Assembly (NCBI GenBank): GCA_039111475.1 | Contig: JBCCIP010000010.1 | Location: 62,677-126,676 of the forward strand | Direction: 5' to 3' | Length of the DNA: 64,000 nucleotides | Origin: Pseudomonadota bacterium | Lineage (GTDB): Bacteria > Pseudomonadota > Gammaproteobacteria > Pseudomonadales > JAUIET01 | Shown: one piece after another, positions 3,863 through 62,884 of the stretch | Layout of the letters: each line of letters starts with the position of its first letter | Numbering within the stretch: the first letter of the stretch is position 1 | The notes under the pieces: generated by a model | Told to the model about the DNA's origin: nothing | The model's database searches: none | What the model saw: only the letters and a program-made list of their open reading frames with translations | Made by a program: the position numbers and the translations under genes

Positions 3863-4747
3863 ATGAGTGAACAGCAACAATTTAACAGCGTGTTCCGCGC
3901 TGACCTGTTTGGCGGCCAAGTCATTCTGATCACAGGTGGTGGCACTGGCATCGGCCGTTGCATAGCGCATGAATTGGCTTCATTGGGTGCTACGGCCGTT
4001 ATCAGTGGTCGTACAGAGCAGTCGCTTAAGGACGTTGTCGAAGAGATTAAGGATGCGGGCGGCAAAGCGGACTATGTCGTGTTCAATATTCGCGACCAGC
4101 CGGCGGTGGATCAGGTTGTTGCTGGGCTGGTGGAAAAGTATGGGCGGTTGGATGCGGTAGTGAACAACGCAGGCGGACAATTTCCGGTGCAGGCTGGCGA
4201 GCTGAAACCGAAAGGCTGGTTGGCGGTGATGGATACCAATTTGAACGGCACGTGGTGGGTGACGCAAGCGGCCTATCAACACGCATTCCGCGATCATGGC
4301 GGTGCTATCGTCAATATTGTTGCCGATGTATGGCTTGGCATACCCGGCATGGTGCATTCGGGCGCGGCCAGAGCAGGTGTTATGAATATGACAATGACAC
4401 TCGCCGCTGAGTGGGCGGCTGATGGAGTGCGGGTCAACTCAATCGCGGCGGGTCCTATTCTTTCCAGCGGTCTTGCCACCTATCCTGAGGCCGTGCAAAA
4501 TCAATTTCTAAACGAAGTTCAGGTAACGCCTGCGGCACGGTTAGGCACTGAGAGTGAGATTTCAGCGGCCGTCGTTTTTCTTTTGTCCCCAGCCGCATCC
4601 TTTATCAGTGGCGAGAACATGAAAGTTGACGGCGCATCTCCAATGTTCAAGAACCCTATGGTTCCTATAGGGCATCATGCTGGCACGCCGACCTGGGATG
4701 GATTTCATCTGCGCTCCAAGCTTGGTGGAAAATTTGCCGAAGAATGA
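3863..4747 (+). CDS. SDR family oxidoreductase, 2,4-dienoyl-CoA reductase-like.
   Basis: TGGGTGIGRCIA glycine-rich NAD(P)-binding motif and a SGR..YxxxK-like catalytic region. Confidence 0.8.
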   Translation: MSEQQQFNSVFRADLFGGQVILITGGGTGIGRCIAHELASLGATAVISGRTEQSLKDVVEEIKDAGGKADYVVFNIRDQPAVDQVVAGLVEKYGRLDAVVNNAGGQFPVQAGELKPKGWLAVMDTNLNGTWWVTQAAYQHAFRDHGGAIVNIVADVWLGIPGMVHSGAARAGVMNMTMTLAAEWAADGVRVNSIAAGPILSSGLATYPEAVQNQFLNEVQVTPAARLGTESEISAAVVFLLSPAASFISGENMKVDGASPMFKNPMVPIGHHAGTPTWDGFHLRSKLGGKFAEE

Positions 4748-49630: not shown

Positions 49631-49911
49631 AGACAGTAAAACGATGTGGTTGTGGATTCATTTCTCAATAGTACCTTGTTGGCCGTAGGCATGTATTTCA
49701 ATTCGTATATGTGGGCAAGACTTGAGCCAATCCTACGTTGCTAATCAGCGCTGCAAGAAAACAGACATTGAACGCGGCGCCAACGCAGCTCCGCAGTTGC
49801 GACGAACTACACCTTTGCTGCGGTAACTGACATTGCGCGTTGCTTTCGCGGCATTGTAGTGTGCTAGTGCCACGACACAGAGGTACTAGTTCGCAGCTAA
49901 TGTACACGCTA

Positions 49912-50379
49912 ATGATCTCACTACTTATAAATGAAAAGCCGGTAACACTTGAATTGGAGCCCAACATGCCGTTGCTGTGGGCCTTGAGGGAGCACCTCAA
50001 CTTAACCGGGGTAAAGTTTGGCTGCGGAATAGGCCAGTGCGGTTCATGCACAGTGCACGTTAATGGCGTGGCACAACGAAGCTGCGTAACACCTGTGGCA
50101 TCTGTTGCGGGTAAGCGTGTTACCACGATCGAAGGTTTGGCGGCGTCAGAGCAACAATTGCATCCCGTGCAGCAGGCGTGGATGGCCAATGATGTGCCGC
50201 AGTGCGGCTACTGCCAGGCAGGGCAAATAATGGCCGCCGCGCATTTTCTGCAGAATTTTCCGGAACCCACTGATGAAGACATTGACACCCACATGACCAA
50301 TATTTGTCGCTGTGGGACTTACGTGCGCATTCGAAAAGCAATTCATGACGCAGCACAATTAATTGCCAAGGAGTCTTGA
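49912..50379 (+). CDS. (2Fe-2S)-binding small subunit of a xanthine dehydrogenase / aldehyde oxidoreductase-family molybdoenzyme (IorA-like).
   Basis: Two cluster motifs ([11 protein letters not shown] and CGYCQAG...CRCGTY). The start is uncertain (49900 or 49912). Overlaps the large-subunit start. Confidence 0.8.
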
Positions 50380-52652
50380 ATATGTCTTCGTTATCCAGCT
50401 CCCAACTTTCCAGTTCCAGACTGCGCCGCCGGCAATTTCTGATAGCCGGTGCTGGATTGTCGGGCTCGTTTGTTCTGGGGTTGCCGATGCACTTATTGGC
50501 AAAGCCAAGCCAGGACGCGGAACCCGTTGATGCCCATGGAACACTGGGCTTCTTTATCGAAATTGACAGCGAAGGTGTGATTACAATTGGCAGTAATCAG
50601 CCAGAAATTGGACAGGGTGTGAGAACCGCTCTGCCAATGCTGGTTGCCGAAGAGCTGGATGCCGACTGGAAAAACGTACGTGTGACGCAAATGCCGCTGG
50701 GCATTGTCAAAACGGCTGATGGCTTCGCCTGGAAATATGGTGGCCAGGGCGTTGGTGGCAGCACCGGCCTGACCAGCAATTGGGAGTTTATGCGCCAGGT
50801 CGGCGCGCAAGCACGTGCTCAACTGATGTCGGCAGCAGCCCAGCGCTGGAATGTGCCAATACAGGAATGCGGTACTCGCCCAGGTTATGTGATTCACCAA
50901 GGTGGCCAGCGAGAGCTAAGCTATGGTCAACTTGTCGGAACGGCCGCGCGGTTGCGACTACCGGGTGAGACCGCGCCGCTAAAAAAACATCAAGACTATC
51001 GAATTATTGGTAAACCAACGGCCAGCGTTGATACGAAAGACGTTGTAACGGGAACCGCTATCTATGGCATAGACAGTGCTGTCGAAGGAATGCGCTACGC
51101 TGTTGTTGCGCGTTCTCCAGTTTTGAATGGGCGAGTGAAAGCATTTGATGCCAAAGATGCGTTGAAGATTCCAGGTGTTTTGCAGGTCTTTCGATTGGAA
51201 GGCCCTAAGCCAGGCGACCCTTACCGGATTCTGGCGGATGGCGTGGCGGTGGTGGCAACATCAACGTGGACGGCCATGAAAGCCCGGGAGGCATTGCGCA
51301 TTGAGTGGGCTTCAAACCCCAATGCAAACGACAACAGCACCGATTTCTGGCAAGACAATCAGCAGATGTTAAAGGCGAAAGGACAAGTAGTTTTGGAGGA
51401 CGGCGATTTTGATCTAGCCGTGTCGAATGCTGCACGTCGTATGGTTCGCCAATACAAAGTGCCGTTTGTATCTCACGCGCCATTGGAGCCACAGAACTGT
51501 ATTGTTCATGTAAAAGAAAACTCCGCGCACGTGATTGCGCCAACCCAAATGCCCAGCGGCGCATCTCGCGCCGTGAACGCAGTGACTGGCATAGAGCGTG
51601 AACACATTAGTGTTGAGATGACCAAGGTGGGTGGCGGCTTCGGTCGCCGCCTGAGCAATGATTACGTCGCGGAAGCGGCCATGATTTCACAGCAAAGCGG
51701 CCTGCCAATCAAGCTGCAGTGGAGCCGTGAAGACGACATCAAAAATGACTTCTATCGGCCCGCCGGTTTGCACGAAATGCAGGCGGGTTTAGATGCACGT
51801 GGCCGGGTCATTGCCTGGGCGCAGCGACTGGCAAGCGCGAGCAAATATTACCGGCGACCCAACATGCCCGATGAGAATCTTTGGGAAGCAGAACTCTATG
51901 TTGATGACTTCCCAAGAAGGCGAGTTGAGAACGTACGGCTGGAATATTTTCACAACGCTATTGGCCTGCCACGTGGCTCCTGGCGCGCACCAGCGCACAC
52001 AGCCAATGCCTTTGTTGTGCAAAGCTTTATCGATGAAATTGCGCACGCGAGCGGGCAAGATCCACTGCAACTGCAGCTGGATCTGTTAGGCAAAGAGGAG
52101 GATCTGGAGTACTCAAATCATGGCGGCCCGGTATTTAATCCAGGCCGGCTCGCCAAACTTTTGAAGTTTGTTGCCCAGCAAATTGACTATAAGCGGAGCA
52201 GACCGGAAGGCGTTGGTGTAGGACTGGCAAGCCATTTCACCTTTGGTGGCTATGCGGCGCACGCAATAGAAGTGTCGGTAAACAACGCAGGTCGATTGAC
52301 TATTGAGAAAATTGTTGCAGCCATTGATTGCGGGCTGGTGGTTAATCCACAGTCCGTCAGGGCTCAACTGGAAGGCGGCACCATCGATGGCATTAGCACT
52401 GCGTTGGGTCTGGAGATTACTGTCAAGGATGGTCAGGTGCAGCAAAGCAATTTCCATGACTACCCATTAATGCGGATTGCACAAGTGCCTGAACAATTTG
52501 AGACACACATTCTGCCTTATGACGACGTGCCGACAGGCGTGGGAGAAATGGGCATACCGTCTGCAGCCCCTGCGCTTACCAATGCAATCTTTGCGGCCAG
52601 TGGTCAGCGAATTAGAGCGCTACCTATTAAGGATCAGCTGAAAAAGTCTTGA
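50376..52652 (+). CDS. Molybdopterin-binding large subunit of an IorB-like aldehyde oxidoreductase or isoquinoline 1-oxidoreductase, Tat-exported.
   Basis: Twin-arginine signal [14 protein letters not shown], a length of about 758 aa and family-typical sequence character. Confidence 0.85.
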
Positions 52653-52658
52653 AGCTCC

Positions 52659-53354
52659 CTAGCTACCAGCATCTTGCAAAATACCTTCTCCTTTCACGAA
52701 CCATGAAACACCAAAAGCGACAATAGCTAACGCTTCCAACCAAAACACGAACTCAAGCTCATTCTGCCAATCCAATTGAACAAGCGCATATTGAACACCA
52801 ATCAGCACAACAGAGCTGACAATCGCATAACCACACACGGTGTACACTTTGTTGCGTTTGATTTTCGCTGCCGTAGGTTCTTGATCCGGACTGAATTTCT
52901 TGAACAGCACCAGGCAAAAATAGGCTAGGGCAAAGAAGAAAAACGCGGCAAACGTCGCGTGCAATAGATCGCAGACTATTTGAGTCGGCGTTAAGGTTTC
53001 TAATTCGGGTGCTACCGGAAACAAAGCAACCCCAATCGCGCTAATGCCGGCAACATCGCCCGCTAGATTGTCTCGCCAGTCCCACCCTTGATACGTCATC
53101 AGAAAAACGGCTATCGCAAACAAGCTGCCTACAAACACGTCACCCATACGGGTGTAGTAGTAGGCGCTCATGGTTTTCTCTATGCCTTCTGCACCGAGTA
53201 ATAGATTGCCTATCGCCAGTACGAAGGGCAGAGAGATGCCTATTACGCCGACTATGCGTCGGAGAGATAAATAGGAGATAACCATGGAGGTGCTAGGCAT
53301 TTGCAGGGATCGTATGCATTGTCGGCTGGCGAGTATAAATGAAGTCTGTACCAC
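52659..53354 (-). CDS. Hypothetical integral membrane protein.
   Basis: Five or six hydrophobic helices with no recognisable motif. The start is uncertain. Confidence 0.45.
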   Translation of the reverse strand: MVQTSFILASRQCIRSLQMPSTSMVISYLSLRRIVGVIGISLPFVLAIGNLLLGAEGIEKTMSAYYYTRMGDVFVGSLFAIAVFLMTYQGWDWRDNLAGDVAGISAIGVALFPVAPELETLTPTQIVCDLLHATFAAFFFFALAYFCLVLFKKFSPDQEPTAAKIKRNKVYTVCGYAIVSSVVLIGVQYALVQLDWQNELEFVFWLEALAIVAFGVSWFVKGEGILQDAGS

Positions 53355-53481
53355 AGTTGTGGGAGCGGTGGCTCAAAGTCAGGCCTGCGGATGCTCAAAA
53401 TTGCAAAAATCATGGTTTTTCTGTCACCACTGGTCTGAATCTGGATGTTAATTGAGGCCATTCATTCAATAAGTTCTTTAA

Positions 53482-53551
53482 TTACAGTAGGTTACAGAAA
53501 TTACAGTTTCAGTTATTGTTACATGTAATAATTTGATATATCACATGTAAG
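53482..53551. promoter_or_regulatory. AT-rich control region. Three TTACAG repeats phased at about 10 bp, then the perfect palindrome TTACATGTAA and a second ACATGTAA copy 23 bp downstream.
   Basis: Read directly. Immediately upstream of the pspA-like operon. Confidence 0.4.
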
Positions 53552-53567
53552 TTGTTAGGATATGTGC

Positions 53568-54188
53568 ATGGAAAAGAAAACATCAGCCCACTATCAGCGC
53601 GAGTTCCGAAGAAGGCTCAGAGAACAAGGACTGATAAAGAAAGAGGTCTGGATTCACCCTGAACGTGCTTCACAGCTTAGGGAGATCGAGAAACGACTGA
53701 GATTTAGTGGCGAAAACGTATTAACGGACGGAGAAAATAGCATGACGAGTAGAACCAACGGCACATGGCATACAACGGATCTTTACACTGAGATTGAGAA
53801 GTCGGAGCTGATCAGTTCTGGCGCCGCGAGCGTCGAACTTATAGAAGGCGTGGATCCCAGTATTCATCTCGAGATGCGCGACTACGGCGACCTGCCTATT
53901 TTTGTCACGGTTGCCGGCGAGCAAATAACGGCCGACGCTGTTTTATGGCCGAAATCAGCCGTTTCAAATGCAGCGGGCTTTAATGACGCAGTACTGCGAA
54001 CACACAAGTACTTCCCGTTATCCACGATCAGTTTGGAAACGGTGAATGGCGAAGATTATTACTACATGTTTGGCGCATTGAGCGCGGCATCGGGTCTGGA
54101 TGACGTGCTGGTAGAAATAGACGCGCTGGCTTCAAACGTAATTAACGCGACTGAAGCTTATGGCGAGTTTCTGAAGTTTGATTCGTAG
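53568..54188 (+). CDS. Hypothetical protein with a basic N-terminal extension and a C-terminal domain resembling YjfI/DUF2170 (assigned by gene-order analogy).
   Basis: It is the first gene of the operon directly preceding a PspA/YjfJ-like gene, as in E. coli yjfI-yjfJ. N-terminus KKTSAHYQREFRRRLREQGL. ATG at 53568 has an AGGA Shine-Dalgarno. Confidence 0.45.
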   Translation: MEKKTSAHYQREFRRRLREQGLIKKEVWIHPERASQLREIEKRLRFSGENVLTDGENSMTSRTNGTWHTTDLYTEIEKSELISSGAASVELIEGVDPSIHLEMRDYGDLPIFVTVAGEQITADAVLWPKSAVSNAAGFNDAVLRTHKYFPLSTISLETVNGEDYYYMFGALSAASGLDDVLVEIDALASNVINATEAYGEFLKFDS

Positions 54189-54223: not shown

Positions 54224-54937
54224 ATGAATATTTGGGCAAAGATGATCACAGCACTTCGCGGAGGTGTTAATGAAGCCGGAGAGGCGATAGTTGACACTCA
54301 AGCACTGCGAATACTTGATCAAGAAGTGCGCGACGCAGCTGAAGAGCTGAAGCAATCGAAAGACGGTTTGGCTAACATTATTGCACAGCAAAAATTGGCG
54401 GAGGAGAAGGTCGCTAAGTTAGAGAGTGAGATAAAAGCTCATGAAGGCTATGCTGTGAAAGCACTTGAGAAGGGCGATGAAGTGCTTGCGTTAGAAGTTG
54501 CCGAAAAAATCGCCAATATGGAAGTTAGTTTGGCGACGGAACGGAATTCTGCCAATGAGTTTGCGGCCAGCGCTGCTAAACTTAAGTCAGCTATCAAGCA
54601 TGCTGAAAGTAATATAAGGCGTTTGAAGCAGCAGGTTGATACAGTTCGTGCCACCGAGAGCGTACAGCGCGCCCAAGCGGCAGTGTCAGAACGGCACAGC
54701 GGTTCAAACTCAAAAATGCGCACTGCCATGGATTCCCTTGAAAGAATCAAGGAAAAACAGGCCCTGAATGAGGCAAAAATGAACGCCGCAGAAGAGCTAA
54801 GCGAAGAGCTTGGGGAAGAATCTTTACAGGCAAAATTGGCGGAAGCGGGAATTACTGGGTCTGAGCGAAGTGCCGAAGACATTTTGGCAAAATTGAAGCC
54901 AAAGGTGAAAAAGGCAACGACTAAGCGTAGCAAATAG
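54224..54937 (+). CDS. PspA/IM30/Vipp1 family protein (YjfJ-like), a member of the ESCRT-III superfamily.
   Basis: All-helical, coiled-coil-rich protein of 237 aa. N-terminus MNIWAKMITALRGGVNEAGEAIVDTQALRILDQEV matches the PspA-family amphipathic helix and core. GGAGAGAG Shine-Dalgarno. Confidence 0.8.
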   Translation: MNIWAKMITALRGGVNEAGEAIVDTQALRILDQEVRDAAEELKQSKDGLANIIAQQKLAEEKVAKLESEIKAHEGYAVKALEKGDEVLALEVAEKIANMEVSLATERNSANEFAASAAKLKSAIKHAESNIRRLKQQVDTVRATESVQRAQAAVSERHSGSNSKMRTAMDSLERIKEKQALNEAKMNAAEELSEELGEESLQAKLAEAGITGSERSAEDILAKLKPKVKKATTKRSK

Positions 54938-54974
54938 AATCTCGGCAACAATAGGCTAGAGGAGAGGGAGAAAG

Positions 54975-55679
54975 ATGTTCGCAATTCTGTTAAGTGACAA
55001 GATGAATCCGTTCTACGAGAACATTGCGTCCTTTCCTACCGTTGTATTCACGTTTCTTCTGGTGCTGTGCACGCTCTATTGGCTTACTGCCATATTGGGA
55101 TTAGTCAGCGTCGACATGCTTGATTTTGATCTGCCCGAAATGGCCGGCCTCGAAGATCTAAATGCTGACGTTGATTCTACCAATCCTGATGTGCTTGCGG
55201 GTTTGATGTTGCGATATGGCCTACACGGTGTACCAGTAACCATCATAGTCAGCTTGTTAGCCATGATTGGCTGGATCGTTTGTTATTACCTGGTGCACTT
55301 CGGCTTCAGTTACACTCCCGATTGGATATCAGATAGCTTTGTTCGTTATCTGGTCGGAATACCGATATTCCTCGTTTCGCTCTACCTGGCTGTGCTTGCC
55401 ACCGCTGTGCTTATAAAACCGCTTCGACCGTTCTTTCTTCGGGCAACGCAAGAAACCACAAAATATGTGATAGGTCAGACGGCGGTAGTTCGAACTTCCA
55501 GAGTGGACAACGGATTCGGTGAGGCGCTGTTGGATGACGGTGGTGCCGGGTTGATTCTGAAAGTGCGTTGCACAGATGGGGAAACGTTTGAGAAGGGAGA
55601 TCGTGTAGTGCTGATCGACCAAATTGAAGGTACCGATTTTTATCGAGTGATCTCTGAAGCAGAATTCACTGATTCCTAG
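54975..55679 (+). CDS. YqiJ/DUF1449-like inner membrane protein with a C-terminal NfeD-like OB-fold.
   Basis: N-terminal TM helices, then a soluble C-terminus (GQTAVVRTSRVDNGFGEALLDDGGAGLILKVRCTDGETFEKGDRVVLIDQIEG) typical of short NfeD proteins, which partner with SPFH proteins. Confidence 0.65.
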   Translation: MFAILLSDKMNPFYENIASFPTVVFTFLLVLCTLYWLTAILGLVSVDMLDFDLPEMAGLEDLNADVDSTNPDVLAGLMLRYGLHGVPVTIIVSLLAMIGWIVCYYLVHFGFSYTPDWISDSFVRYLVGIPIFLVSLYLAVLATAVLIKPLRPFFLRATQETTKYVIGQTAVVRTSRVDNGFGEALLDDGGAGLILKVRCTDGETFEKGDRVVLIDQIEGTDFYRVISEAEFTDS

Positions 55680-55732
55680 CGAGTGCTGGTAGCTCGTTAC
55701 AAACAAAAAGGACACTAACTAAGGAAAATACT

Positions 55733-57643
55733 ATGGCTGATTTATCGATTTTGATGCCGATTCTCGTATGGATAGGCGTGGCATTCGTAACATTGCTTGG
55801 TCTGGCGGGTTTGTTCAAAGCGTTTTACTACAAAGTAGAGCAGGGCACCGCGCTTATCGTCAATGACATGAGCTCAACACCCAAGGTCCATTTTACCGGC
55901 GCTCTGGTGTATCCAATCATCTACAAAAAGGAGCTGATGAAAATCTCCTTGATAACCCTGGAGGTTGATCGCAGGGCTAAAGACGGCCTGATTTGTAATG
56001 ACAATATGCGTGCAGACATAACGGTAGCGTTTTATTTGCGGGTTAATGAAACCGCTCAAGACGTGCTAAAGGTTGCAAAGTCGATAGGTGCTGAACGAGC
56101 TTCTGATCGTGAAGCAGTTCATGACTTGTTTGCCGCCAAGTTTTCTGAAGCACTGAAAACCGTGGGCAAGCAGATTGACTTTGTACAGTTGTTTGAGAAT
56201 CGCCAGCAATTTCGTGAAAAAATCATCGAAGTTATTGGCGAAGATTTGAATGGTTATGTACTGGAAGATGTTGCAATCGACTATCTGGAACAAACTCCAA
56301 AAGAACATTTGGACCCAAGTAATATTCTCGACTCAGAAGGCATAAAGAAGATTACGGAGTTAACCGCTGAGCAGAACGTTCGAACCAATATCCTTGAACG
56401 GGACGAAGAACTTGCGATCAAGAAGAAAAATGTAGAAACAGTGGAAGCAATGCTAGAGCTTGAACGCCAGCAAGCAGATGCCGAAGCGCGACAAGAAAGA
56501 GAAGTGCTGACCATACGCGCTCGTGAAGAAGCAGAAACGAAAAAAGTGCAGGAAGAGGAGCGTCAAAAAGCTGAGCAGGCGACGATTACTGTAGATCAGG
56601 AGCTGATGGTACAAACAGAAAACCAGAAGCGCGAAGTAGAGGTAGCGGAGCAAAACCGTCAGCGCGCTGTTGCGGTAGAAGAAGAAAAGGTCACACGTGC
56701 TCGTGACCTGGAGATAGTATCCAGGGAAAGAGAAGTTGACGTAGAGCGCGTGCTTGCAGAGAAAGCCGTGGAAGTTGAGAAGAAAGAAATCGCCAACGTA
56801 ATTCGTGAGCGAGTCGCCGTCGATAAAACAGTGGCCATTGAGGAAGAGCGAATTAAGGAAGTGAGAGAAGTATCAGATGCTGACCGTAAGAAGCAAGTGC
56901 AGGTACTCGCTGCTGAGGCAAATGCTCAGGAAGGCAAGGTGAAAGAGGTCACAGCTGCGGCCGCTGAAGAAGAAGCTGCGAAACACAAAGCAGCTGAAAT
57001 CACTACAATTGCGGCGGCAAACCTTGATGCTGCTGATATGGAAGCCAAAGCACAAATCCGCTTGGCCGAAGCCATTCAGGCTGACCAAGCGGCACCGGGT
57101 CTTGCGGAAGCTCAGGTACAAGATGCGAAAGCAGACTCTTTGCAGAAAGAAGGTCTTGCTGAAGCTGCTGTGATCAATGCCAAAGGCGACGCCGAAGCCA
57201 GTGCCTCGAAAGAAATTGGAATGGCCGGAGCGGAAGTCACTCGCCAGCAATTCAAGGCTGAGGCCGATGGCTTGGTGGATAAGTTCGATGCTATGAATTC
57301 AATGAGTGATAATGCCCGCGAGCATGAGGAATTCCGCATGGCGCTTGAAACAGCCTTTAAGGAAGCCATTGCCGCGATTGAAGCAGGTAAGGAAATCGCC
57401 AAAGAAAACGCTGAAGTGTTGGGTACAGCGCTGGAACGAGCGAAGATCGATATTGTGGGTGGAGAAGATCACTTCTTCGACAACTTCGCCAAGTCTTTGT
57501 CCATTGGCAAAGCCGTGGATGGACTGGCCAACAAGAGCGACACACTTGGCTTGATCCTCGACTCTGTGCTCAAGCGTGCAAGCGGTGACGTGGTTGCTGT
57601 AGACCCGGAGCAAGAAGCGCCCGCCTCCGAGCCGGCCGCCTAA
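55733..57643 (+). CDS. Flotillin / SPFH (band-7) domain protein, YqiK-like.
   Basis: N-terminal TM helix, an SPFH domain (VEQGTALIVNDMSSTPKVHFTGALVYPIIYKKELMKISLITLEV), then a long EA-rich coiled-coil flotillin tail. Confidence 0.85.
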   Translation: MADLSILMPILVWIGVAFVTLLGLAGLFKAFYYKVEQGTALIVNDMSSTPKVHFTGALVYPIIYKKELMKISLITLEVDRRAKDGLICNDNMRADITVAFYLRVNETAQDVLKVAKSIGAERASDREAVHDLFAAKFSEALKTVGKQIDFVQLFENRQQFREKIIEVIGEDLNGYVLEDVAIDYLEQTPKEHLDPSNILDSEGIKKITELTAEQNVRTNILERDEELAIKKKNVETVEAMLELERQQADAEARQEREVLTIRAREEAETKKVQEEERQKAEQATITVDQELMVQTENQKREVEVAEQNRQRAVAVEEEKVTRARDLEIVSREREVDVERVLAEKAVEVEKKEIANVIRERVAVDKTVAIEEERIKEVREVSDADRKKQVQVLAAEANAQEGKVKEVTAAAAEEEAAKHKAAEITTIAAANLDAADMEAKAQIRLAEAIQADQAAPGLAEAQVQDAKADSLQKEGLAEAAVINAKGDAEASASKEIGMAGAEVTRQQFKAEADGLVDKFDAMNSMSDNAREHEEFRMALETAFKEAIAAIEAGKEIAKENAEVLGTALERAKIDIVGGEDHFFDNFAKSLSIGKAVDGLANKSDTLGLILDSVLKRASGDVVAVDPEQEAPASEPAA

Positions 57644-57664
57644 GCCGGCGCGGAGCACAGCTGA

Positions 57665-60600
57665 ATGGCTGAAGAACACGAAGAACACGCATCGCTAGTT
57701 GAGGCTGCTGTAGCCGAAGGAGGCGCTTATGAAATTATTCGCAAGCGCTTGGAGGCACAAGGTCTTACGCTGGAAGAGAAGACGCTCGCCCTGAATGCTG
57801 CGCGTACAGAGGAGATTGGCAGTACCGATCTCGAAACTATTGCGCGAGTGCGGGTGAGAACGGAAAACAATTGCATTGCCAGAGACCTGGTTCAGGTTGG
57901 CGACTGTTTGCTGTTTGGCTACAACGTCTTCATTGGCCTTAAAAAACAGACAAAGGTTGAAGACGTATTTGCGTTATTCAGGCTGTCTGACAAAGAAGAC
58001 GGCCATGGCATAGAACCGGCAGAGCATCAATCAAACTTCCTGACACAGCCGCGTTTTCTCAATGATTTTCGCGAGCTGTATGAATACTACAAAAATGCCC
58101 GCCTGATTCAGCTGACTGTTAACAATGGTAAGTTGCTGGCCGGGTTTCAGATAGGGGAAAAGCACACTGATATTCGTGTATTCCGATGGAGTGTTGGCGC
58201 TGATGGAAGCCGTGTGGAATACATTGATAATCGTGGGGAGCGCGATATTCAATTGCCACCAGCCTTTGATTTTGAATGGCAGGCCAGCAGCAGAGAAGAT
58301 TTTGTGAATGGCCGCCATCCGCACATCAATATTCTGGATACCTTGTTTGTAGACAACCTTGATGGTTCAATCGGCTTTAAAGTAGAAAACAACACAGAAT
58401 CAGGTCTGGGTGTTTTCAGCGAGCCATTGGCAGAAAGCAATCAATCACTCGATGATCTTGACGTATTTTTCGCGAAACTGGGCGATTTGCTGTTACTTCG
58501 CGTGCTTCCGTACCGCGAGGAAGACTGGCGCCATTATGTGTTCAATAGTAATACGCAACTTATTGAGCGAATAGATTCGATTGGCGAGTCTTGCGTTCAA
58601 TTGCCGGAGGATCACGGTTTAATCTACCCCGACGGTTACTATCTGCAAAGCGGTGAGTCAAAGAACTTTGGTGAAATGACCAAAGGCTTTAAGTTCAAGC
58701 GCAGTGTGCGCTCACCCAATGGCGAAGACTACCTGTTTGTGTTCTATGAACCGGCTGCCGGCCGCGTAGCCTTGTTTTCTTACAATCTGATCGAACGGAG
58801 TTTGCAAAACCCTATTTTTGGAAACGGTTATGCAAGAGCTGAAAATGGCAAACTGGTGATTTTTACCTCCGAGGATGAGCCTACCCGTGTTCACCCCATG
58901 CAAGTCTGGCAAACGCCATTCACATCACAGGAATTTGCAGACCAGGAACCAGCGGCACAGACCTTCTTCGGTAAGATAGGCAACTCCGCGCTGGTTCGTG
59001 GGGTATCAGATTTGTATCGAGTGTGTAAGCAAATCCGCCAGCAGCAAGTAACAGCTGTGCATTACGAACGCCTTCAAAAAGACATTGCCAAGGTCTTTGA
59101 TGCTCATTACTGGTTGACCAGCGACGAGCTGGATGGCTTGGACACGGTACTTAAAAGTATCGCTGATACCTCCGAACTTATTATCGATGAATTCGAGAAA
59201 GTGACAGCGATACGGGAACAATCAAGCCTGGCTATTGAGGATGCTGTGCGTAGCCAGGGCAACTTGATTGGCGAGATAGACAACGCCAGTCTGGAGCAAG
59301 TCGCTGACTTTGTGAGTTTTCTCGATCAAATTCGCCACCAGCGTGGACATCTAGCCACAATTGCTGAATATCGATACATTGATGCTGAGCGAATTGCCAC
59401 TCTGGATCAAGCGCTTAAACAGAGAGCGGACGAATTAGGTAAGAAGACTATTGAGTTCCTCGCTGAAGAGCAAGCACTAGTACCTTACACCGAGAAAATA
59501 AAGGCGTTGGAACAGCAGCTGGATGGCGCCAAAACAGCAACTCAATTTGAGCCCTTTATTAATGAAATAGAATCAATAGCGGGCAGTCTTGATCTACTGT
59601 CCGAATTGGTTACCACGCTTAAAGTTGACGATGCAACGGTTCGAACGAAAATCATTGATGGAATATCAGCCGTTTATGCGCAGCTTAACCAAACGAAGGC
59701 AAGCGCCGAGATTAAAAAATCTGACCTAACGTCAGAAGAGGCTGTTGCCCAGTTTGCGGCGCAATTCAAATTACTTTCCCAGAGTGTTAATAATGCGCTC
59801 AGTCTTGCGACTGACCCGGAAAAGTGCGACGAACAGCTGTCGCGGCTGCTGGTTCAGCTTGAAGAACTGGAAAGTCAGTTTGGCGAGCACGACCGCTTCC
59901 TTGGTGACATTGTAGACAAGCGGGAAGAAATCTATGACAGCTTTGAATCGCATAAGCAACAACTGGTAGAAGGCCAGCAAAGGCGCATTGCTGCCTTACA
60001 AAGCGCTGCCGAGCGCATGCTAAACAGCATTGATAAGCGAAGTATCAAGTTCAATGACGCAGATGAACTTAATACCTACCTGGTGTCAGATGCACTGGTG
60101 CTAAAGATCAGCGACCTCACCGATCAACTCAGTGCAATTGGTGGGGATTTGCAAGCAGATGATATTGGCGCACGCCTGAAACTCATCAAAGATCAGGCCT
60201 TGCGTTCTCTGCGAGATAAGTCTGATATTTTTGAATCTGGCGGCAAGGTTATCAAGCTGGGTGACAAGCACAGGTTTACTGTGAATACGGAAGAGCTTGA
60301 CCTAAGCATTATTCCGATTGATGAGCATTTGTCTGTGCATCTAAGTGGTACACAGTATTTTGACAAAATTGAAAACGATGATCTTGAAATACGACGACCC
60401 TATTGGGATGTTGTTCTTGAGTCTGAAAGCAACACCGTTTCCCGGGCAGAGTATCTCGCGTACCAGTTTGCGCTCGCGCTGAGAGCGGGCGATATAGCAA
60501 CTGATGAGCTAGGCAAAGAGCCGTACAGTCATGAGCAGCTGTATCCACTAATTCAAAAGTTTGCGGCACCACTCTATAAGCACGCTTACGAGAAAGGCAT

Positions 60601-62884
60601 ACACGACCATGATGCAGCTCGAATTACCGAGAACTTGCTGCCGATTCTAAAGACGGCTGGCCCGCTGGTGTACTCACCTGAGAGCCGCGCGCTCGCGATG
60701 TCGTTCTGGTACCAGCAAGCGCAGGTTGATACCGATGGGAAGCTCATCGACGTAATCACTCAGAGAGCAAAGTCAGCGTTCGCGCTGAAGAAAGCGCTTA
60801 ACAGCAATAATAGTCTGGACATTTTAATCGCTGATGTCTTGGAACTGATTTCGGAGTATCAACAAGATAAAGGCATAGATGTATCCAGCCAGACGATGAG
60901 TCAAGCTGCCAGCTACCTACTGGCGGAGTTGGAAGAAGGCAAGCCGGAATTCTCAGTGAGCCCCGCAGGGCAAGAGTTGCTGGATCTGTACCATCGCAAG
61001 CTTGGCAAGCGAGCGGTTCAGGGTCATACGAAGTCTATTGCCGGCATGCGGGGCGATCCAATGAGGCAATGGTCACTGAGCCGCGCCTGGTTGCTGGCCC
61101 TTCTGGATGAAATTAAAGACGAGAGCAAGCGAGCGGTGCTAAACGTGTTCGTTGACGAAGCTGTTGCAGTGTTGAATTGGGGCGAAGGTATCGATACTCG
61201 TTGCAGCAACGCGGAGCTGCGCATGTCTGTGGATGGCTTGCTGAGTTCGCATGAGAGAATCTCAGATCAGCGACTGAATTTTACGCTGGATGATTTCATG
61301 CATCGAATGCTACACCATCAGGAAATCTTTATTCCAGAGTACAAACATTTCATTGAACTCAAGCAGCAGATCGCGGCCCAGCAGCGTTCGGATCTTCGCC
61401 TGGAATCCTTCAAGCCAAGACCGCTTAGCTCATTCGTTCGAAACAAACTAATAGATCAGGCCTATCTTCCTATTATCGGCGACAATCTTGCCAAGCAAAT
61501 GGGGACTGTGGGTGACAGCAAGCGTACCGACTTGATGGGTTTACTGATGATGATTTCCCCACCGGGTTATGGCAAAACCACTTTGATGGAGTATGTTGCC
61601 AGTCGACTAGGCTTAATCTTCATGAAAATTAACTGCCCGGCATTGGGGCACGATGTGGTTTCAGTTGATCCGCAACAGGCAAGTAATGCCACTGCACGAC
61701 AGGAACTCGAGAAGCTCAATTTGGCATTTGAGATGGGCAACAACGTGATGCTATATCTGGACGATATCCAGCACACGAATTCCGAGTTTCTGCAAAAATT
61801 TATTTCACTGTGTGATGCGACGCGCCGGATAGAGGGTGTGTGGCGGGGTGATGTAAAGACCTATGACTTACGCGGCAGGCGATTCTGCGTAGTGATGGCT
61901 GGTAACCCGTATACGGAATCTGGTGAGAGCTTCAAAGTGCCAGACATGCTGGCCAATCGTGCCGATATTTACAATTTGGGTGACATACTCAGTGGCATGG
62001 ATGAGGTATTTGCGCTCAGCTACATAGAGAATTGCCTGACGTCCAATTCAACGCTCGCACCGTTAGCGGCCAGAGATATGCAAGATGTATATCGCTTTAT
62101 TGATATGGCCAAAGGGCGTGAAGTGCCGACTACTGACTTGAGTCATAGCTACAGTGGCGCTGAAGTTTCCGAGATTGTGGGTGTTTTGAAAAAGCTGTTT
62201 GTCGTGCAGAACGTTATTCTGCGAATCAATCAGCAATACATTGCATCCGCAGCACAGGAAGATAAGTACAGAGTTGAGCCGCCTTTTTTACTGCAAGGCA
62301 GTTATCGAAACATGAATAAAATGGCTGAAAAAATCTCGGCTGTTATGAATAGCGAAGAACTTGAGCGGCTCATCGATGATCACTATCTAGGCGAAGCTCA
62401 GTTGCTCACAACGGGTACAGAAGCTAATCTGCTCAAACTCGCTGAATTGAGAGGCGGTCTGGATGACGAGCAGGAACAGCGTTGGCAGCAGATAAAAGAC
62501 GATTTCTTGCGCAATAAATCGCTGGGTGGTGATGCAGATGACGTAGGTAATCGAATAGCGACACAACTGGCAGACCTGGTCAACAGCGTCAGTGATCTTG
62601 ATCGGGGACAAGCTGAGCATGATTCAAACTATCTTGCGAAGCTTGCGGCCAGTGCTGAAAAAATTGCTGAAGGACACCCCAGACAGGAACCAAATATAGA
62701 AGTGGTAAACCAGGCCAACCCGGAATTGGCTAATGCAGTGGGTGTACTGACCAACACGATTGAGAGCACTTTGTTCCCAATTCTTCGATCAATGGACAAG
62801 AAATTGGATATTGATTTAAGAACGCAGGAAAAGATGCACGCTATCTCAGAGCAATTGCGCGCGCTTCAAAAAAGCGTCGAGTAA
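57665..62884 (+). CDS. Giant (1739 aa) cytoplasmic protein with a C-terminal MoxR/AAA_5-type AAA+ ATPase module. The N-terminal 1300 aa or so are unassigned.
   Basis: Walker A PPGYGKTT (around 61559-61582), Walker B MLYLDDIQH (around 61748-61771), and a sensor/Arg region VVMAGNPYTESGESFKVPDMLANRADIY that matches the MoxR pattern NPxExxG...DRF. Long helical or coiled-coil segments upstream. No signal peptide or TM segment. Starts 21 nt after the flotillin gene. Confidence 0.8.
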   Translation: MAEEHEEHASLVEAAVAEGGAYEIIRKRLEAQGLTLEEKTLALNAARTEEIGSTDLETIARVRVRTENNCIARDLVQVGDCLLFGYNVFIGLKKQTKVEDVFALFRLSDKEDGHGIEPAEHQSNFLTQPRFLNDFRELYEYYKNARLIQLTVNNGKLLAGFQIGEKHTDIRVFRWSVGADGSRVEYIDNRGERDIQLPPAFDFEWQASSREDFVNGRHPHINILDTLFVDNLDGSIGFKVENNTESGLGVFSEPLAESNQSLDDLDVFFAKLGDLLLLRVLPYREEDWRHYVFNSNTQLIERIDSIGESCVQLPEDHGLIYPDGYYLQSGESKNFGEMTKGFKFKRSVRSPNGEDYLFVFYEPAAGRVALFSYNLIERSLQNPIFGNGYARAENGKLVIFTSEDEPTRVHPMQVWQTPFTSQEFADQEPAAQTFFGKIGNSALVRGVSDLYRVCKQIRQQQVTAVHYERLQKDIAKVFDAHYWLTSDELDGLDTVLKSIADTSELIIDEFEKVTAIREQSSLAIEDAVRSQGNLIGEIDNASLEQVADFVSFLDQIRHQRGHLATIAEYRYIDAERIATLDQALKQRADELGKKTIEFLAEEQALVPYTEKIKALEQQLDGAKTATQFEPFINEIESIAGSLDLLSELVTTLKVDDATVRTKIIDGISAVYAQLNQTKASAEIKKSDLTSEEAVAQFAAQFKLLSQSVNNALSLATDPEKCDEQLSRLLVQLEELESQFGEHDRFLGDIVDKREEIYDSFESHKQQLVEGQQRRIAALQSAAERMLNSIDKRSIKFNDADELNTYLVSDALVLKISDLTDQLSAIGGDLQADDIGARLKLIKDQALRSLRDKSDIFESGGKVIKLGDKHRFTVNTEELDLSIIPIDEHLSVHLSGTQYFDKIENDDLEIRRPYWDVVLESESNTVSRAEYLAYQFALALRAGDIATDELGKEPYSHEQLYPLIQKFAAPLYKHAYEKGIHDHDAARITENLLPILKTAGPLVYSPESRALAMSFWYQQAQVDTDGKLIDVITQRAKSAFALKKALNSNNSLDILIADVLELISEYQQDKGIDVSSQTMSQAASYLLAELEEGKPEFSVSPAGQELLDLYHRKLGKRAVQGHTKSIAGMRGDPMRQWSLSRAWLLALLDEIKDESKRAVLNVFVDEAVAVLNWGEGIDTRCSNAELRMSVDGLLSSHERISDQRLNFTLDDFMHRMLHHQEIFIPEYKHFIELKQQIAAQQRSDLRLESFKPRPLSSFVRNKLIDQAYLPIIGDNLAKQMGTVGDSKRTDLMGLLMMISPPGYGKTTLMEYVASRLGLIFMKINCPALGHDVVSVDPQQASNATARQELEKLNLAFEMGNNVMLYLDDIQHTNSEFLQKFISLCDATRRIEGVWRGDVKTYDLRGRRFCVVMAGNPYTESGESFKVPDMLANRADIYNLGDILSGMDEVFALSYIENCLTSNSTLAPLAARDMQDVYRFIDMAKGREVPTTDLSHSYSGAEVSEIVGVLKKLFVVQNVILRINQQYIASAAQEDKYRVEPPFLLQGSYRNMNKMAEKISAVMNSEELERLIDDHYLGEAQLLTTGTEANLLKLAELRGGLDDEQEQRWQQIKDDFLRNKSLGGDADDVGNRIATQLADLVNSVSDLDRGQAEHDSNYLAKLAASAEKIAEGHPRQEPNIEVVNQANPELANAVGVLTNTIESTLFPILRSMDKKLDIDLRTQEKMHAISEQLRALQKSVE

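What the first reader, a model, noticed from the sequence alone, without database searches (positions are those of the whole stretch)
53355..53561. Structured AT-rich control region upstream of the pspA-like operon
The 207-nt region between the divergent membrane-protein gene and the operon contains three TTACAG hexamers phased at about 10 bp (53482, 53492, 53501). These are followed by the perfect 10-bp palindrome TTACATGTAA (53519-53528) and a second ACATGTAA copy at 53543-53550, directly abutting the start codon. Helically phased repeats plus palindromes suggest a dedicated transcription factor, possibly an IHF-, Fis- or response-regulator-type site. Classical psp operons use sigma-54 with PspF. 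I looked for a GG-N10-GC element and found only GG-N12-GC (ggatgc...ttgca at about 53389), so the promoter type is unresolved.
Basis: seen in the sequence. Interest (0 to 1): 0.5.

Follow-up and report, generated by a model that had tools for sequence, protein, structure and literature searches.

The report
Conserved operator-promoter of a BacA/PspA operon

Summary
TTACAG occurs three times (53482, 53492, 53501), TTACATGTAA lies at 53519-53528, and TCACATGTAA at 53541-53550. The second copy does not abut the start codon, because the -10 box lies between them.

The two palindromes are operators. In 80 orthologous loci and in P. aeruginosa bacA, the same 10-mer occurs 2-3 times at fixed positions (-27 and -50, sometimes -71). 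The copies sit 21-24 bp apart and flank a TTGACA-like -35. A TAnnGT -10 ends 6-7 nt before the ATG and there is no Shine-Dalgarno, which predicts a leaderless mRNA. In the window this is TTGATA(53533)-N17-TAGGAT(53561), with +1 at about ATG 53568.

No sigma-54 element, enhancer-binding-protein signature or Rfam match was found, and the RNA fold is no better than shuffles.

The downstream protein is BacA-like: a conserved 50-aa basic N-terminal domain fused to DUF2170. That domain weakly resembles Pfam PF11455 (MazE-like antitoxin). Bona fide PF11455-MazF modules carry the same GTTACATGTAAC operators. E. coli yjfI lacks both the domain and the motif.

The best model is steric autorepression by BacA, possibly tuned by its PspA-like partner. 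The TTACAG triplet is non-random, specific to this lineage, and made of operator half-sites.

The parts
53482..53506 (+). Three direct TTACAG hexamers (53482, 53492, 53501; at -86, -76 and -67 relative to ATG 53568). Each contains the operator half-site TTACA. Probably auxiliary or degenerate half-sites at the position where 22 of 81 loci carry a third full operator.
   Evidence: the only hexamer-x3 cluster in the window, and the half-site enrichment has P=0.003; a third operator at about -71 in 22 loci; the TTACAG repetition is found only in this locus.
53519..53528 (.). Distal operator O2: perfect palindrome TTACATGTAA (extended form GTTACATGTAAT, 53518-53529). It spans -49 to -40 and ends 4 nt upstream of the -35 hexamer.
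   Evidence: the distal site starts at -50 +/- 2 in nearly all of 80 orthologous loci; same arrangement in P. aeruginosa.
53533..53538 (+). -35 hexamer TTGATA (family consensus TTGAca).
   Evidence: promoter scan: TTGATA-N17-TAGGAT, TG before the -10. T80 T81 G71 A75 C50 A40 of 82 loci; spacer of 17 nt in 70 of 82.
53541..53550 (.). Proximal operator O1: TCACATGTAA (one mismatch to the palindrome). It spans -27 to -18, inside the -35/-10 spacer, and starts 22 bp after O2.
   Evidence: the proximal site starts at -27 +/- 2 in 76 of 81 loci; operator spacing is 21-24 bp in 87 of 102 intervals.
53553..53561 (+). Extended -10 element TGtTAGGAT. The hexamer TAGGAT is at 53556-53561; the family consensus is TAnnGT.
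   Evidence: A at position 2 and T at position 6 in all 82 loci (both are required by that scan, so not independent evidence); T at position 1 in 76 of 82 and G at position 5 in 50 of 82. The hexamer ends 6-7 nt before the start codon in 71 of 82.
53568..53570 (+). Conserved ATG start of the bacA-like gene and predicted transcription start, making the mRNA leaderless. The upstream in-frame ATG at 53562 lies between the -10 and +1.
   Evidence: all homologues start at the aligned Met; an SD-like motif precedes bacA in 4 of 82 loci, against 71 of 81 for the next gene, pspA. Not mapped experimentally.
53568..54188 (+). BacA/YjfI-like gene (206 aa). Residues 1-50 form a very conserved basic domain (SAHYQREFRRRLREQGLIKKEVWIHPE...), the proposed DNA-binding module. 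A variable linker follows, and residues 66-202 are DUF2170 (CesT/Tir-like chaperone fold).
   Evidence: DUF2170, 8.7e-48. NCBIfam BacA, 286 bits against a cutoff of 300. PDB 8q8o covers only residues 66-203; the invariant residues cluster in residues 1-31; weak PF11455 hits; hhalign E=0.002.
54224..62884 (+). The rest of the controlled operon. It comprises a PspA/IM30 protein (54224-54937), a YqiJ-like membrane protein (54975-55679), a flotillin-like protein (55733-57643; no Pfam hit here, label taken from the literature on the syntenic operon) and a DUF3686/AAA+ protein (57665-62884).
   Evidence: synteny in 78-82 of 82 loci; same order in P. aeruginosa; the operon class as described by Ravi et al.

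Best explanation
Window 53519-53567 is a sigma-70-type promoter that drives a leaderless bacA-like mRNA. It is embedded in two copies of a 10-bp palindromic operator, TTACATGTAA. O2 lies just upstream of the -35 and O1 lies inside the -35/-10 spacer, with the two centres 22 bp (two helical turns) apart.

The operators are most likely bound by dimers of the operon's first product. BacA would bind through its conserved N-terminal MazE-like (PF11455-related) domain, with dimerisation or tetramerisation helped by the DUF2170/CesT-like domain. Occupancy of O1 and O2 would exclude RNA polymerase, giving negative autoregulation of bacA-pspA-yqiJ-flotillin-AAA.

The three upstream TTACAG hexamers are extra half-sites. 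They may extend cooperative binding in this lineage, or they may be remnants of a third operator.

A further step is inferred rather than shown: binding of the PspA-like partner (BacB) to the DUF2170 domain tunes repression. This would be analogous to a toxin modulating an antitoxin, and to PspA controlling PspF, so that membrane stress that recruits the PspA-like protein de-represses the operon.

Shown here: the motif anatomy, its conservation and positional constraint, the link between domain and operator across two protein architectures, and the absence of sigma-54 features. Inferred: the transcription start, DNA binding by the N-terminal domain, and the direction and nature of the signal.
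For: 1. Conservation. The 10-mer (up to 1 mismatch) occurs 180 times within -130..0 of bacA in 80 loci from many gammaproteobacterial genera. It occurs only 8 times, none exact, in the other ~490 kb of those loci. Positions are fixed at -27 +/- 2 and -50 +/- 2, with a third site at about -71 in 22 loci. Spacing is 21-24 bp.

2. Promoter. The anchored consensus is TTGAca-N17-TAnnGT, with the -10 ending 6-7 nt before the ATG in 71 of 82 loci. SD-like motifs precede bacA in 4 of 82 loci against 71 of 81 for pspA. The window's TTGATA-N17-TAGGAT was found independently by the promoter scan.

3. P. aeruginosa bacA has the same layout: ATTACATGTGA-gctg-TTGAAA-tc-TTACATGTGA-tctcg-TAGTGT-gagtcc-ATG. 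A bacA mutant accumulates the other Bac proteins, which indicates negative control (PMC10948618).

4. Domain-to-operator link.
- The N-terminal domain hits Pfam PF11455 MazE-like in 17 of 25 homologues, with best E=9e-4. hhalign against a PF11455 alignment gives E=0.002 over the R..R..LR..GL....W core.
- Four metagenomic loci found only by the double-operator pattern are bona fide PF11455 antitoxin + PemK/MazF pairs, scoring 81-95 bits.
- Six PF11455-PemK loci were chosen by protein alone. Five carry GTTACATGTAAC (up to 1 mismatch) just upstream, and the sixth carries the variant GTTACTAGTAAC twice.

5. Negative control. E. coli yjfI-yjfJ (DUF2170 without the N-terminal domain, plus PspA) has no site with 2 or fewer mismatches upstream.

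6. Upstream neighbours are not conserved (0 of 82 loci) while the operon is (78-82 of 82), so no other linked regulator is available. No other protein in the window has the domain.

7. A BacA-BacB interaction is predicted with probability 0.981 (PMC13092808), and Wallart et al. cite unpublished data for it.
Against: - There is no direct evidence of DNA binding by BacA. The similarity to PF11455 is below Pfam's gathering score: the best homologue scores 18 bits against a cutoff of 22, and the window protein itself has no hit. The hhalign probability is only 14%.
- AF2 models of the isolated domain are of low to moderate confidence (pLDDT 65 and 78) and match no known DNA-binding fold.
- Wallart et al. 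interpret BacA as a chaperone-like regulator that acts through protein-protein contacts, and they propose a sigma-54 site. The accumulation of Bac proteins in the mutant could also be post-transcriptional, or a polar effect of the insertion.
- Five of 81 loci (Hahella and others) lack the proximal operator and place both sites upstream of the -35, so strict spacer occlusion is not universal.
- The same double palindrome is common in unrelated metagenomic contexts, so the sequence alone is not diagnostic.
- The transcription start is inferred, not mapped.
Confidence: 0.7

Rival explanations
1. The palindromes are operators, but a different, unlinked transcription factor binds them. This could be a free-standing PF11455-type antitoxin or a global regulator. 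BacA would then regulate only through protein-protein contacts, as proposed in the literature.
For: - BacA's DNA binding is untested.
- The similarity of the N-terminal domain to PF11455 is below threshold.
- PF11455 antitoxins use the same operator, so cross-talk is conceivable in genomes that encode both.
- Wallart et al. favour a chaperone/partner mechanism.
Against: - The operator co-occurs with the N-terminal domain in 80 of 80 loci across many genera, and is absent from E. coli yjfI, which lacks the domain.
- No conserved neighbouring regulator exists.
- No second PF11455-like ORF is present in the 64-kb window.
- The N-terminal 31 residues are the most conserved part of the protein, as expected if they read an invariant DNA site.
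Confidence: 0.15
2. The operon has a classical psp-type sigma-54 promoter with an enhancer-binding activator, as proposed for P. aeruginosa bac. The repeats would be activator (UAS) or IHF sites.
For: Two papers propose an RpoN site upstream of PA3732 from sequence inspection (PMC2587700, PMC10948618). One IHF consensus match lies at 53526-53538 on the minus strand.
Against: - There is no GG-N10-GC on the + strand in 53250-53600.
- No GAFTGA or ESELFGH enhancer-binding-protein signature occurs in any frame of the window.
- The conserved elements are TTGACA-N17-TAnnGT.
- In P. aeruginosa the only GG-N10-GC in 3700-4200 of L082 lies at 4124. That is inside the coding sequence of the conserved N-terminal domain, which the older 16-kDa annotation omitted.
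- An IHF consensus is present in only 7 of 83 loci.
Confidence: 0.04
3. The inverted repeats act in RNA, as a leader hairpin, attenuator or riboswitch-like structure of a transcript that starts further upstream.
For: Arms 53519-53530 and 53539-53550 are 92% complementary with an 8-nt loop and pair in the MFE structure.
Against: - The folding energy is no better than shuffles: z=0.13, with 109 of 200 shuffles folding at least as well.
- There is no Rfam match at E<=1.
- Across loci each 10-mer is conserved in sequence as a self-palindrome, with variable distance and intervening sequence. The intervening sequence contains a conserved -35. This is the signature of protein-binding DNA sites, not of a covarying helix.
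- The predicted -10 lies downstream of both arms.
Confidence: 0.03
4. The TTACAG triplet is the functional core of the region, a phased array for a bending protein or response regulator, and the palindromes are secondary.
For: The triplet has 9-10 bp phasing and is statistically unusual in the window.
Against: Only this locus among 83 has two or more TTACAG upstream. The palindromes, by contrast, are near-universal. The hexamer contains the operator half-site TTACA, so it is more simply read as part of the same recognition system.
Confidence: 0.05

Closest known systems
Pseudomonas aeruginosa bacABCDEF (PA3732-PA3729 and downstream genes; Biofilm Associated Cluster). This is the CesT/Tir-PspA-YqiJ-Band7/flotillin-AAA+ operon class of Ravi et al.
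   Same: - The gene order and families are the same: DUF2170 protein, PspA/IM30, a ~215-230-aa membrane protein, a ~640-690-aa protein and a ~1740-aa DUF3686/AAA protein.
- BacA has the same 206-aa two-domain form.
- The operator/promoter layout upstream is the same.
- Negative control by BacA has been reported (PMC10948618).
   Different: - The window protein is 286 bits against NCBIfam's BacA equivalog cutoff of 300. It is about 60% identical to its nearest named relatives, so it is an orthologue from another lineage (an unnamed Pseudomonadota MAG).
- The published work used a 146-aa construct that lacks the N-terminal domain, and it proposed a sigma-54 promoter. Neither the operator nor a DNA-binding domain is described in the papers found.
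Type II toxin-antitoxin autoregulation by PF11455 (MazE-like, formerly DUF3018) antitoxins paired with PemK/MazF toxins
   Same: - The operator core is the same: (G)TTACATGTAA(C), usually in two copies 21-24 bp apart overlapping the promoter.
- The sequence signature R..R..LR..GL.....W.P and the predicted helix-extended-helix pattern are shared.
- The logic of a DNA-binding module fused to a partner-binding module is shared.
   Different: - The partner-binding part is a 140-aa CesT-like DUF2170 domain instead of a short toxin-binding tail.
- There is no toxin gene.
- The TA promoters have an SD and a leader, whereas bacA is predicted to be leaderless.
- Sequence similarity is below Pfam's threshold.
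- DNA binding by PF11455 proteins was not found documented in the searched literature and no solved structure exists by sequence. That TA antitoxins autoregulate is general knowledge, not shown for this family here.
Classical E. coli Psp system (sigma-54 pspA promoter, activator PspF, anti-activator PspA)
   Same: Both are PspA-family operons with feedback in which the PspA-like protein is thought to contact the transcription regulator.
   Different: There is no sigma-54 element and no enhancer-binding protein. The regulator is a predicted repressor encoded as the first gene of the operon, and the promoter is sigma-70-type.
E. coli yjfIJKLMC (DUF2170-PspA dyad with polyamine-related genes)
   Same: Both have the DUF2170 + PspA/IM30 gene pair.
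   Different: YjfI is 133 aa without the N-terminal domain, and its upstream region has no TTACATGTAA-like site. This serves here as the natural negative control.

Membership tests
bac-type CesT/Tir-PspA-YqiJ-flotillin-AAA+ operon (BacA promoter region) | The first gene encodes a DUF2170 (YjfI/BacA) protein. | tested here: met
   Pfam DUF2170 at 8.7e-48. PDB 8q8o (BacA) at 1e-37. NCBIfam BacA equivalog at 286 bits, just under the cutoff of 300.
bac-type CesT/Tir-PspA-YqiJ-flotillin-AAA+ operon (BacA promoter region) | The first gene is followed by PspA/IM30, a small multi-TM protein, a large Band-7/flotillin-like protein and a DUF3686/AAA+ protein, all on the same strand. | tested here: met
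   PspA_IM30 at 2.1e-46 and DUF3686 at 7.5e-188 plus AAA. Synteny by tblastn in 78-82 of 82 loci. Same order in P. aeruginosa. The 234-aa and 636-aa proteins have no Pfam hit here, so their 'YqiJ/flotillin' labels rest on Ravi et al..
bac-type CesT/Tir-PspA-YqiJ-flotillin-AAA+ operon (BacA promoter region) | Two or more TTACATGTAA operators flank a TTGACA-like -35, with the -10 ending 6-7 nt before the ATG. This feature is defined in this study. | tested here: met
   Window sites at -49 and -27, TTGATA-N17-TAGGAT, and 6 nt from the -10 to the ATG.
Pfam PF11455 MazE-like antitoxin domain | A score at or above Pfam's gathering threshold (22 bits). | tested here: not met
   The window N-terminus has no PF11455 hit. 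The best homologue scores 18 bits. 17 of 25 homologues hit at E<=10, with a best E of 9e-4.
Pfam PF11455 MazE-like antitoxin domain | Profile-profile similarity to family members. | tested here: inconclusive
   hhalign of A2 against A3 gives E=0.002 and probability 14% over 29 columns covering the basic helix and the GL....W strand.
Pfam PF11455 MazE-like antitoxin domain | Gene pairing with a PemK/MazF toxin. | tested here: not met
   The domain is fused to DUF2170 and followed by PspA, not by a toxin. Genuine PF11455 loci all have PemK downstream.
Pfam PF11455 MazE-like antitoxin domain | The same cognate operator upstream of its own gene. | tested here: met
   GTTACATGTAAC lies upstream of 5 of 6 protein-selected PF11455 genes and 4 motif-selected ones. 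TTACATGTAA lies upstream of bacA in 80 of 80 loci.
Sigma-54 / PspF-dependent psp promoter | -24 GG and -12 GC separated by 10 nt (TGGCAC-N5-TTGCW). | tested here: not met
   No GG-N10-GC on the + strand of 53250-53600.
Sigma-54 / PspF-dependent psp promoter | A cognate bacterial enhancer-binding protein (GAFTGA AAA+ protein). | tested here: not met
   No GAFTGA or ESELFGH motif in any frame of the 64-kb window. The rest of the genome was not available.
Sigma-70 promoter producing a leaderless mRNA | -35 and -10 hexamers with a 16-18-nt spacer, conserved among orthologues. | tested here: met
Sigma-70 promoter producing a leaderless mRNA | Transcription starts at (or within 1-2 nt of) the A of the start codon, and no SD is present. 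| not testable with these tools
   Geometry supports it: the -10 ends 6-7 nt before the ATG in 71 of 82 loci, and an SD-like motif precedes bacA in 4 of 82. The 5' end itself needs experimental mapping.
Ribbon-helix-helix (CopG/Arc/MetJ) repressor-operator systems | A beta-alpha-alpha fold with an N-terminal strand inserted in the major groove. | tested here: inconclusive
   The AF2 monomers show helix, extended segment, helix. There is no significant PDB fold match and no sequence match to solved structures.
   An IHF consensus is present in 7 of 83 loci, and the TTACAG repetition in 1 of 83. Fis and response-regulator motifs were not tested specifically.

The most novel reading that the evidence does not exclude
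BacA would be a previously unrecognised chimeric regulator. An antitoxin-type (PF11455-like) DNA-binding domain of still-unsolved fold, reading TTACATGTAA, is fused to a CesT-like chaperone domain that binds the PspA-like protein. The operon would then sense the pool of free PspA-like protein and de-repress on membrane stress. This would be a sigma-54- and PspF-independent Psp feedback circuit built from toxin-antitoxin parts, conserved across many gammaproteobacteria including P. aeruginosa. In P. aeruginosa it would replace the published sigma-54 model and would mean that the crystallised BacA lacks its DNA-binding half.
Probability: 0.35. Interest if true: 0.75.

Novelty: new variant of a known kind. 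Interest (0 to 1): 0.6.

Why it matters
The bac operon affects biofilm formation, swarming, rhamnolipid secretion and virulence in P. aeruginosa. PspA/ESCRT-III-type membrane-repair systems outside E. coli are poorly understood at the regulatory level.

This analysis gives a concrete, cheaply testable model:
- two 10-bp operators;
- a sigma-70-type leaderless promoter;

The model accounts for the reported negative control by BacA. It suggests that the sigma-54 site proposed in the literature lies inside coding sequence, a consequence of an old truncated annotation. It also shows that structural work so far omitted the likely DNA-binding half of the protein.

In addition, it assigns a cognate operator, GTTACATGTAAC, to the PF11455 MazE-like antitoxin family. 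No operator or structure for that family was found in the sources searched. Finally, it documents the re-use of a TA-module DNA-binding domain in a stress-response operon.

Tried and rejected
- **Structure of the N-terminal domain.** AF2 on a 25-sequence alignment gave pLDDT 64.7, with two helices and an unstructured middle. AF2 of a PF11455 antitoxin gave pLDDT 78.1. A Foldseek search of that model against the PDB found nothing with E<=0.001. The domain is probably an obligate dimer, so monomer models are uninformative, and the fold class remains open.
- **Sequence searches of solved structures.** Profiles of the BacA N-terminus and of PF11455 gave only chance-level hits.
- **Profile search of 1.84 billion representative proteins with the N-terminal domain.** It returned 168 hits. 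Many of the hits are about 200 aa long like BacA and many others are short, but none was checked for DUF2170. There are no annotations, so this was not pursued further.
- **RNA explanations.** Rfam at E<=1 gave no hit, and the RNA fold z-score is 0.13. Rejected.
- **Sigma-54.** The GG-N10-GC scan was negative, as was the scan for enhancer-binding-protein signatures. Rejected.
- **IHF.** The single consensus match is a by-product of the operator end plus the -35 hexamer, and it is not conserved. Rejected.
- **Regulon search.** No further good sites were found in the 64-kb window or in the 490 kb flanking the orthologous promoters. A genome-wide regulon could not be tested.
- **Metagenome scan for the double operator.** I had expected it to be specific for bacA. 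It was not: only 13 of 120 loci are bacA and 4 are PF11455 TA modules. The rest are unrelated AT-rich repeat elements and satellites. This scan was nevertheless what revealed the TA connection.
- **Literature.** Searches for the motif string, PF11455 and DUF3018 found no description of this operator.
Full report
**1. The observation**

TTACAG is at 53482, 53492 and 53501. The perfect palindrome TTACATGTAA is at 53519-53528. A second ACATGTAA is at 53543-53550, and the full site there is TCACATGTAA (53541-53550), one mismatch from the palindrome.

The motifs are not chance.
- The TTACAG triplet is the only case in the whole 64-kb window of any hexamer occurring three times within 26 nt, against 0.145 expected in shuffles.
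- The pentamers TTACA/TGTAA occur 6 times in 53440-53567 against 0.57 expected.
- In the segment upstream of the palindromes they occur 3 times against 0.34 expected, P=0.003.

Two details are wrong. First, the second palindrome does not abut the start codon. Second, the longest-ORF start (ATG 53562) is not the real start. An alignment of 31 homologues places the conserved initiator at ATG 53568. The region is AT-rich, 29% GC against 50% for the window.

**2. The genes**

The downstream gene (53568-54188, 206 aa) is a BacA/YjfI-family protein. Residues 66-202 are DUF2170 (8.7e-48). They match the crystal structure of P. aeruginosa BacA, 8q8o (1e-37), which covers only that part. NCBIfam's 'biofilm formation regulator BacA' model scores 286 bits over the full length, against a cutoff of 300.

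Four more genes follow on the same strand:
- a PspA/IM30 protein;
- a 234-aa membrane protein;
- a 636-aa protein;
- a 1739-aa DUF3686/AAA+ protein.

This is the CesT/Tir-PspA-YqiJ-Band7/flotillin-AAA+ operon class described by Ravi et al., and the bacABCDEF operon of P. aeruginosa.

The first ~50 residues (MEKKTSAHYQREFRRRLREQGLIKKEVWIHPERASQLREIEKRLR) have no Pfam family. They are nevertheless the most conserved part of the protein across homologues that are only ~60% identical overall. Invariant residues include S6 A7 Y9 Q10 R11 E12 R14 R16 R18 G21 L22 K24 K25 E26 W28 P31.

**3. Comparative evidence for the DNA element**

Eighty loci encoding relatives were fetched from one-genome-per-species contigs. 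They include Cellvibrio, Hahella, Oleispira, Gilvimarinus, Bacterioplanes and Maricurvus, Methylococcales and Woeseia MAGs, and others.

In every one the upstream 100 nt contains TTACATGTAA-type palindromes. Allowing one mismatch, 54 loci have two copies, 22 have three, one has four and four have one.

Positions are almost invariant. The proximal site starts at -27 +/- 2, the distal site at -50 +/- 2, and the third at about -71 relative to the A of the ATG. The window's sites are at -27 and -49. Successive sites are 21-24 bp apart in 87 of 102 intervals.

Within these 80 loci there are 180 matches in the -130..0 segment. Only 8 matches, none exact, occur in the remaining ~490 kb.

Anchoring on the proximal site reveals a conserved sigma-70-type promoter. 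TTGAca ends 2-3 nt before the proximal operator. TAnnGT begins 5 nt after it. The spacer is 17 nt in 70 of 82 loci.

The window's version, TTGATA(53533-53538)-N17-TAGGAT(53556-53561) preceded by TG, had been picked up independently by the consensus scan.

The -10 ends 6-7 nt before the start codon in 71 of 82 loci. An SD-like motif precedes bacA in only 4 of 82 loci. One of these is the window, where 'AGGA' is part of the -10 hexamer. The next gene, pspA, has an SD-like motif in 71 of 81 loci. The transcript is therefore predicted to be leaderless, starting at the ATG. This is an inference from geometry.

**4. Who binds the operators**

Upstream neighbours are not conserved: 0 of 82 loci share the window's divergent membrane protein. 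The operon genes are conserved in 78-82 of 82 loci. The only conserved linked candidate is therefore an operon product.

Four lines point to the N-terminal domain of BacA.

(a) It weakly matches Pfam PF11455 'Antitoxin MazE-like' (formerly DUF3018) in 17 of 25 homologues. The best score is E=9e-4 and 18 bits, against a cutoff of 22. hhalign against an alignment of genuine PF11455 proteins gives E=0.002 over the shared R..R..LR..GL.....W core. AF2 predicts the same pattern of helix, extended segment and helix for both.

(b) A scan of metagenome contigs for TTACATGTAA-N11-14-TTACATGTAA returned 120 loci. Thirteen are bacA promoters. Four are textbook PF11455 antitoxin + PemK/MazF toxin pairs (81-95 bits and 76-84 bits), with GTTACATGTAAC twice immediately upstream of the antitoxin gene.

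(c) The reverse, unbiased test used six PF11455-PemK loci chosen by protein similarity alone. Five carry GTTACATGTAAC (up to 1 mismatch) in the promoter, and the sixth has the variant GTTACTAGTAAC twice. The same operator therefore accompanies the same type of domain in two otherwise unrelated architectures. Autoregulation by antitoxins binding palindromes in their own promoters is established general knowledge for type II TA systems. It was not found documented for PF11455 in the searched literature.

(d) As a negative control, E. coli yjfI-yjfJ encodes a DUF2170 protein of 133 aa without the N-terminal domain. It has no site with 2 or fewer mismatches in the 330 nt upstream.

**5. Link to experiment**

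P. aeruginosa BacA in current annotation is 206 aa with the same N-terminal domain. Its promoter reads ATTACATGTGA-GCTG-TTGAAA-TC-TTACATGTGA-TCTCG-TAGTGT-GAGTCC-ATG, the same layout.

Wallart et al. found that a bacA mutant accumulates the other Bac proteins and concluded that BacA exerts negative control (PMC10948618). They crystallised only the DUF2170 part. Like Macé et al. 2008, who described PA3732 as a 16-kDa protein, they proposed a sigma-54 site.

In the P. aeruginosa locus the only GG-N10-GC on the coding strand between 3700 and 4200 is at 4124. That is inside the N-terminal-domain coding sequence and upstream of the old short start. I could not see their figure, so identifying this site with theirs is an inference.

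In the window there is no GG-N10-GC at all in 53250-53600, and no enhancer-binding-protein signature in any frame. A BacA-BacB (PspA-like) complex is predicted with probability 0.981 (PMC13092808).

**6. Mechanism proposed**

BacA dimers would bind O1 (inside the spacer) and O2 (abutting the -35), two helical turns apart. They would block RNA polymerase and so autorepress the operon.

The DUF2170 domain is a dimeric CesT-like chaperone. It replaces the toxin-binding tail of the antitoxin and probably couples repression to the availability of the PspA-like partner. This would give a feedback comparable in logic to PspA-PspF but built on repression at a sigma-70 promoter. The sign of that coupling is unknown. 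I favour the partner acting as co-repressor, which gives homeostasis and induction when PspA is drawn to damaged membrane, but with low confidence.

Five loci (three Hahella loci, L019 and L050) place both operators upstream of the -35, so the geometry is not universal.

**7. The TTACAG triplet**

The triplet is real and non-random, but it is unique to this locus among 83. Each hexamer contains the half-site TTACA. The triplet occupies -86 to -62, where relatives often carry a third and occasionally a fourth full operator. I read it as auxiliary or degenerate half-sites. Its function is untested.

**8. Rivals**

- An unlinked factor binding the operators, with BacA acting only through protein contacts, cannot be excluded without biochemistry (confidence 0.15).
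- Sigma-54/IHF models and RNA-structure models are contradicted, and by the pattern of conservation.

**9. Novelty and verdict**

The operon class and BacA's regulatory role are published. The following were not found in the literature searched:
- the operator;
- the sigma-70-type leaderless promoter;
- the antitoxin-like N-terminal domain;
- the shared operator with PF11455 TA modules.

As a cis-element this is an autoregulatory operator-promoter, which is a known kind. The fusion of an antitoxin-type DNA-binding domain to a PspA-binding chaperone is a new variant. Interest is 0.6. Confidence in autorepression by BacA through these sites is about 0.7.

Noticed in passing
window 53365-53377 and 53387-53399: Direct repeat GCGGTGGCTCAAA / GCGGATGCTCAAA with 22-nt spacing. 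It lies in the GC-richer half of the intergenic region, next to the 5' end of the divergent membrane-protein ORF. It may belong to the divergent gene's control region.
   Followed up: no
window 52659-53354 (- strand): The divergent 231-aa multi-TM ORF has no Pfam family, only a sub-threshold NCBIfam CopD hit (20 bits against 195). It is not conserved next to bacA in any of 82 related loci. Its start is ambiguous: GTG 53354, ATG 53300 or ATG 53285.
   Followed up: partly
window 53562 vs 53568: The longest-ORF rule gives the start as ATG 53562 (MCMEKK...). The conserved start is ATG 53568 (MEKK...). The extra two codons fall between the -10 hexamer and the predicted +1.
   Followed up: yes
L082 4001-4621 (P. 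aeruginosa) and PDB 8q8o: PA3732/BacA was originally annotated as a 16-kDa protein and crystallised as 146 aa. The current 206-aa form adds the conserved N-terminal domain. The only GG-N10-GC near the gene (L082 4124) lies inside that added coding sequence, so the published sigma-54 site may be intragenic.
   Followed up: partly
L085-L141 and others (e.g. L090 1473-1504, L103 4155-4186, L117 580-610 and 1790-1822, L125 7090-7120 and 8301-8332): Most exact double-palindrome hits in metagenomes are elements of the form TTTACATGTAAAG-N-CTTTACATGTAAA in AT-rich contigs. In L117 and L125 a pair of such elements brackets a two-gene block. They are unrelated to bacA or PF11455, and their nature is unknown (a repeat element or the site of another factor).
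   Followed up: no
L089, L113, L126, L132, L168, L171: Tandem arrays of (A/T)TTACATGTAA(A/T)-containing units with ~21-51-nt periods. They look satellite-like and are probably eukaryotic or repeat DNA picked up by the pattern scan.
   Followed up: no
L204 (Paraburkholderia hospita), upstream of gene 1001-1210: This PF11455 antitoxin (P0438) has the operator variant GTTACTAGTAAC twice (central CATG changed to CTAG). Uniquely in the alignment it has E instead of the near-invariant Q in RPIQIWVP. This is a possible specificity-determining contact, but it is a single case.
   Followed up: no
L004, L013, L017 (Hahella), L019, L050: These bacA promoters lack the proximal operator. Both operators lie upstream of the TTGACA -35 (at about -49 and -71), so repression geometry differs within the family.
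   Followed up: partly
window 49840-52652: Upstream of the divergent gene lie a 2Fe-2S subunit-like ORF (49840-50379) and a 758-aa ORF with a twin-arginine-like N-terminus (50376-52652). They read like the small and large subunits of a periplasmic aldehyde/isoquinoline oxidoreductase-type molybdoenzyme. This is judged by eye only; no domain search was run.
   Followed up: no
PF11455 family (A3; model m6cb6a379951c): The MazE-like PF11455 family has no relative of solved structure by sequence. Its AF2 monomer gives no significant fold match, so the DNA-binding fold that reads GTTACATGTAAC appears structurally uncharacterised.
   Followed up: partly
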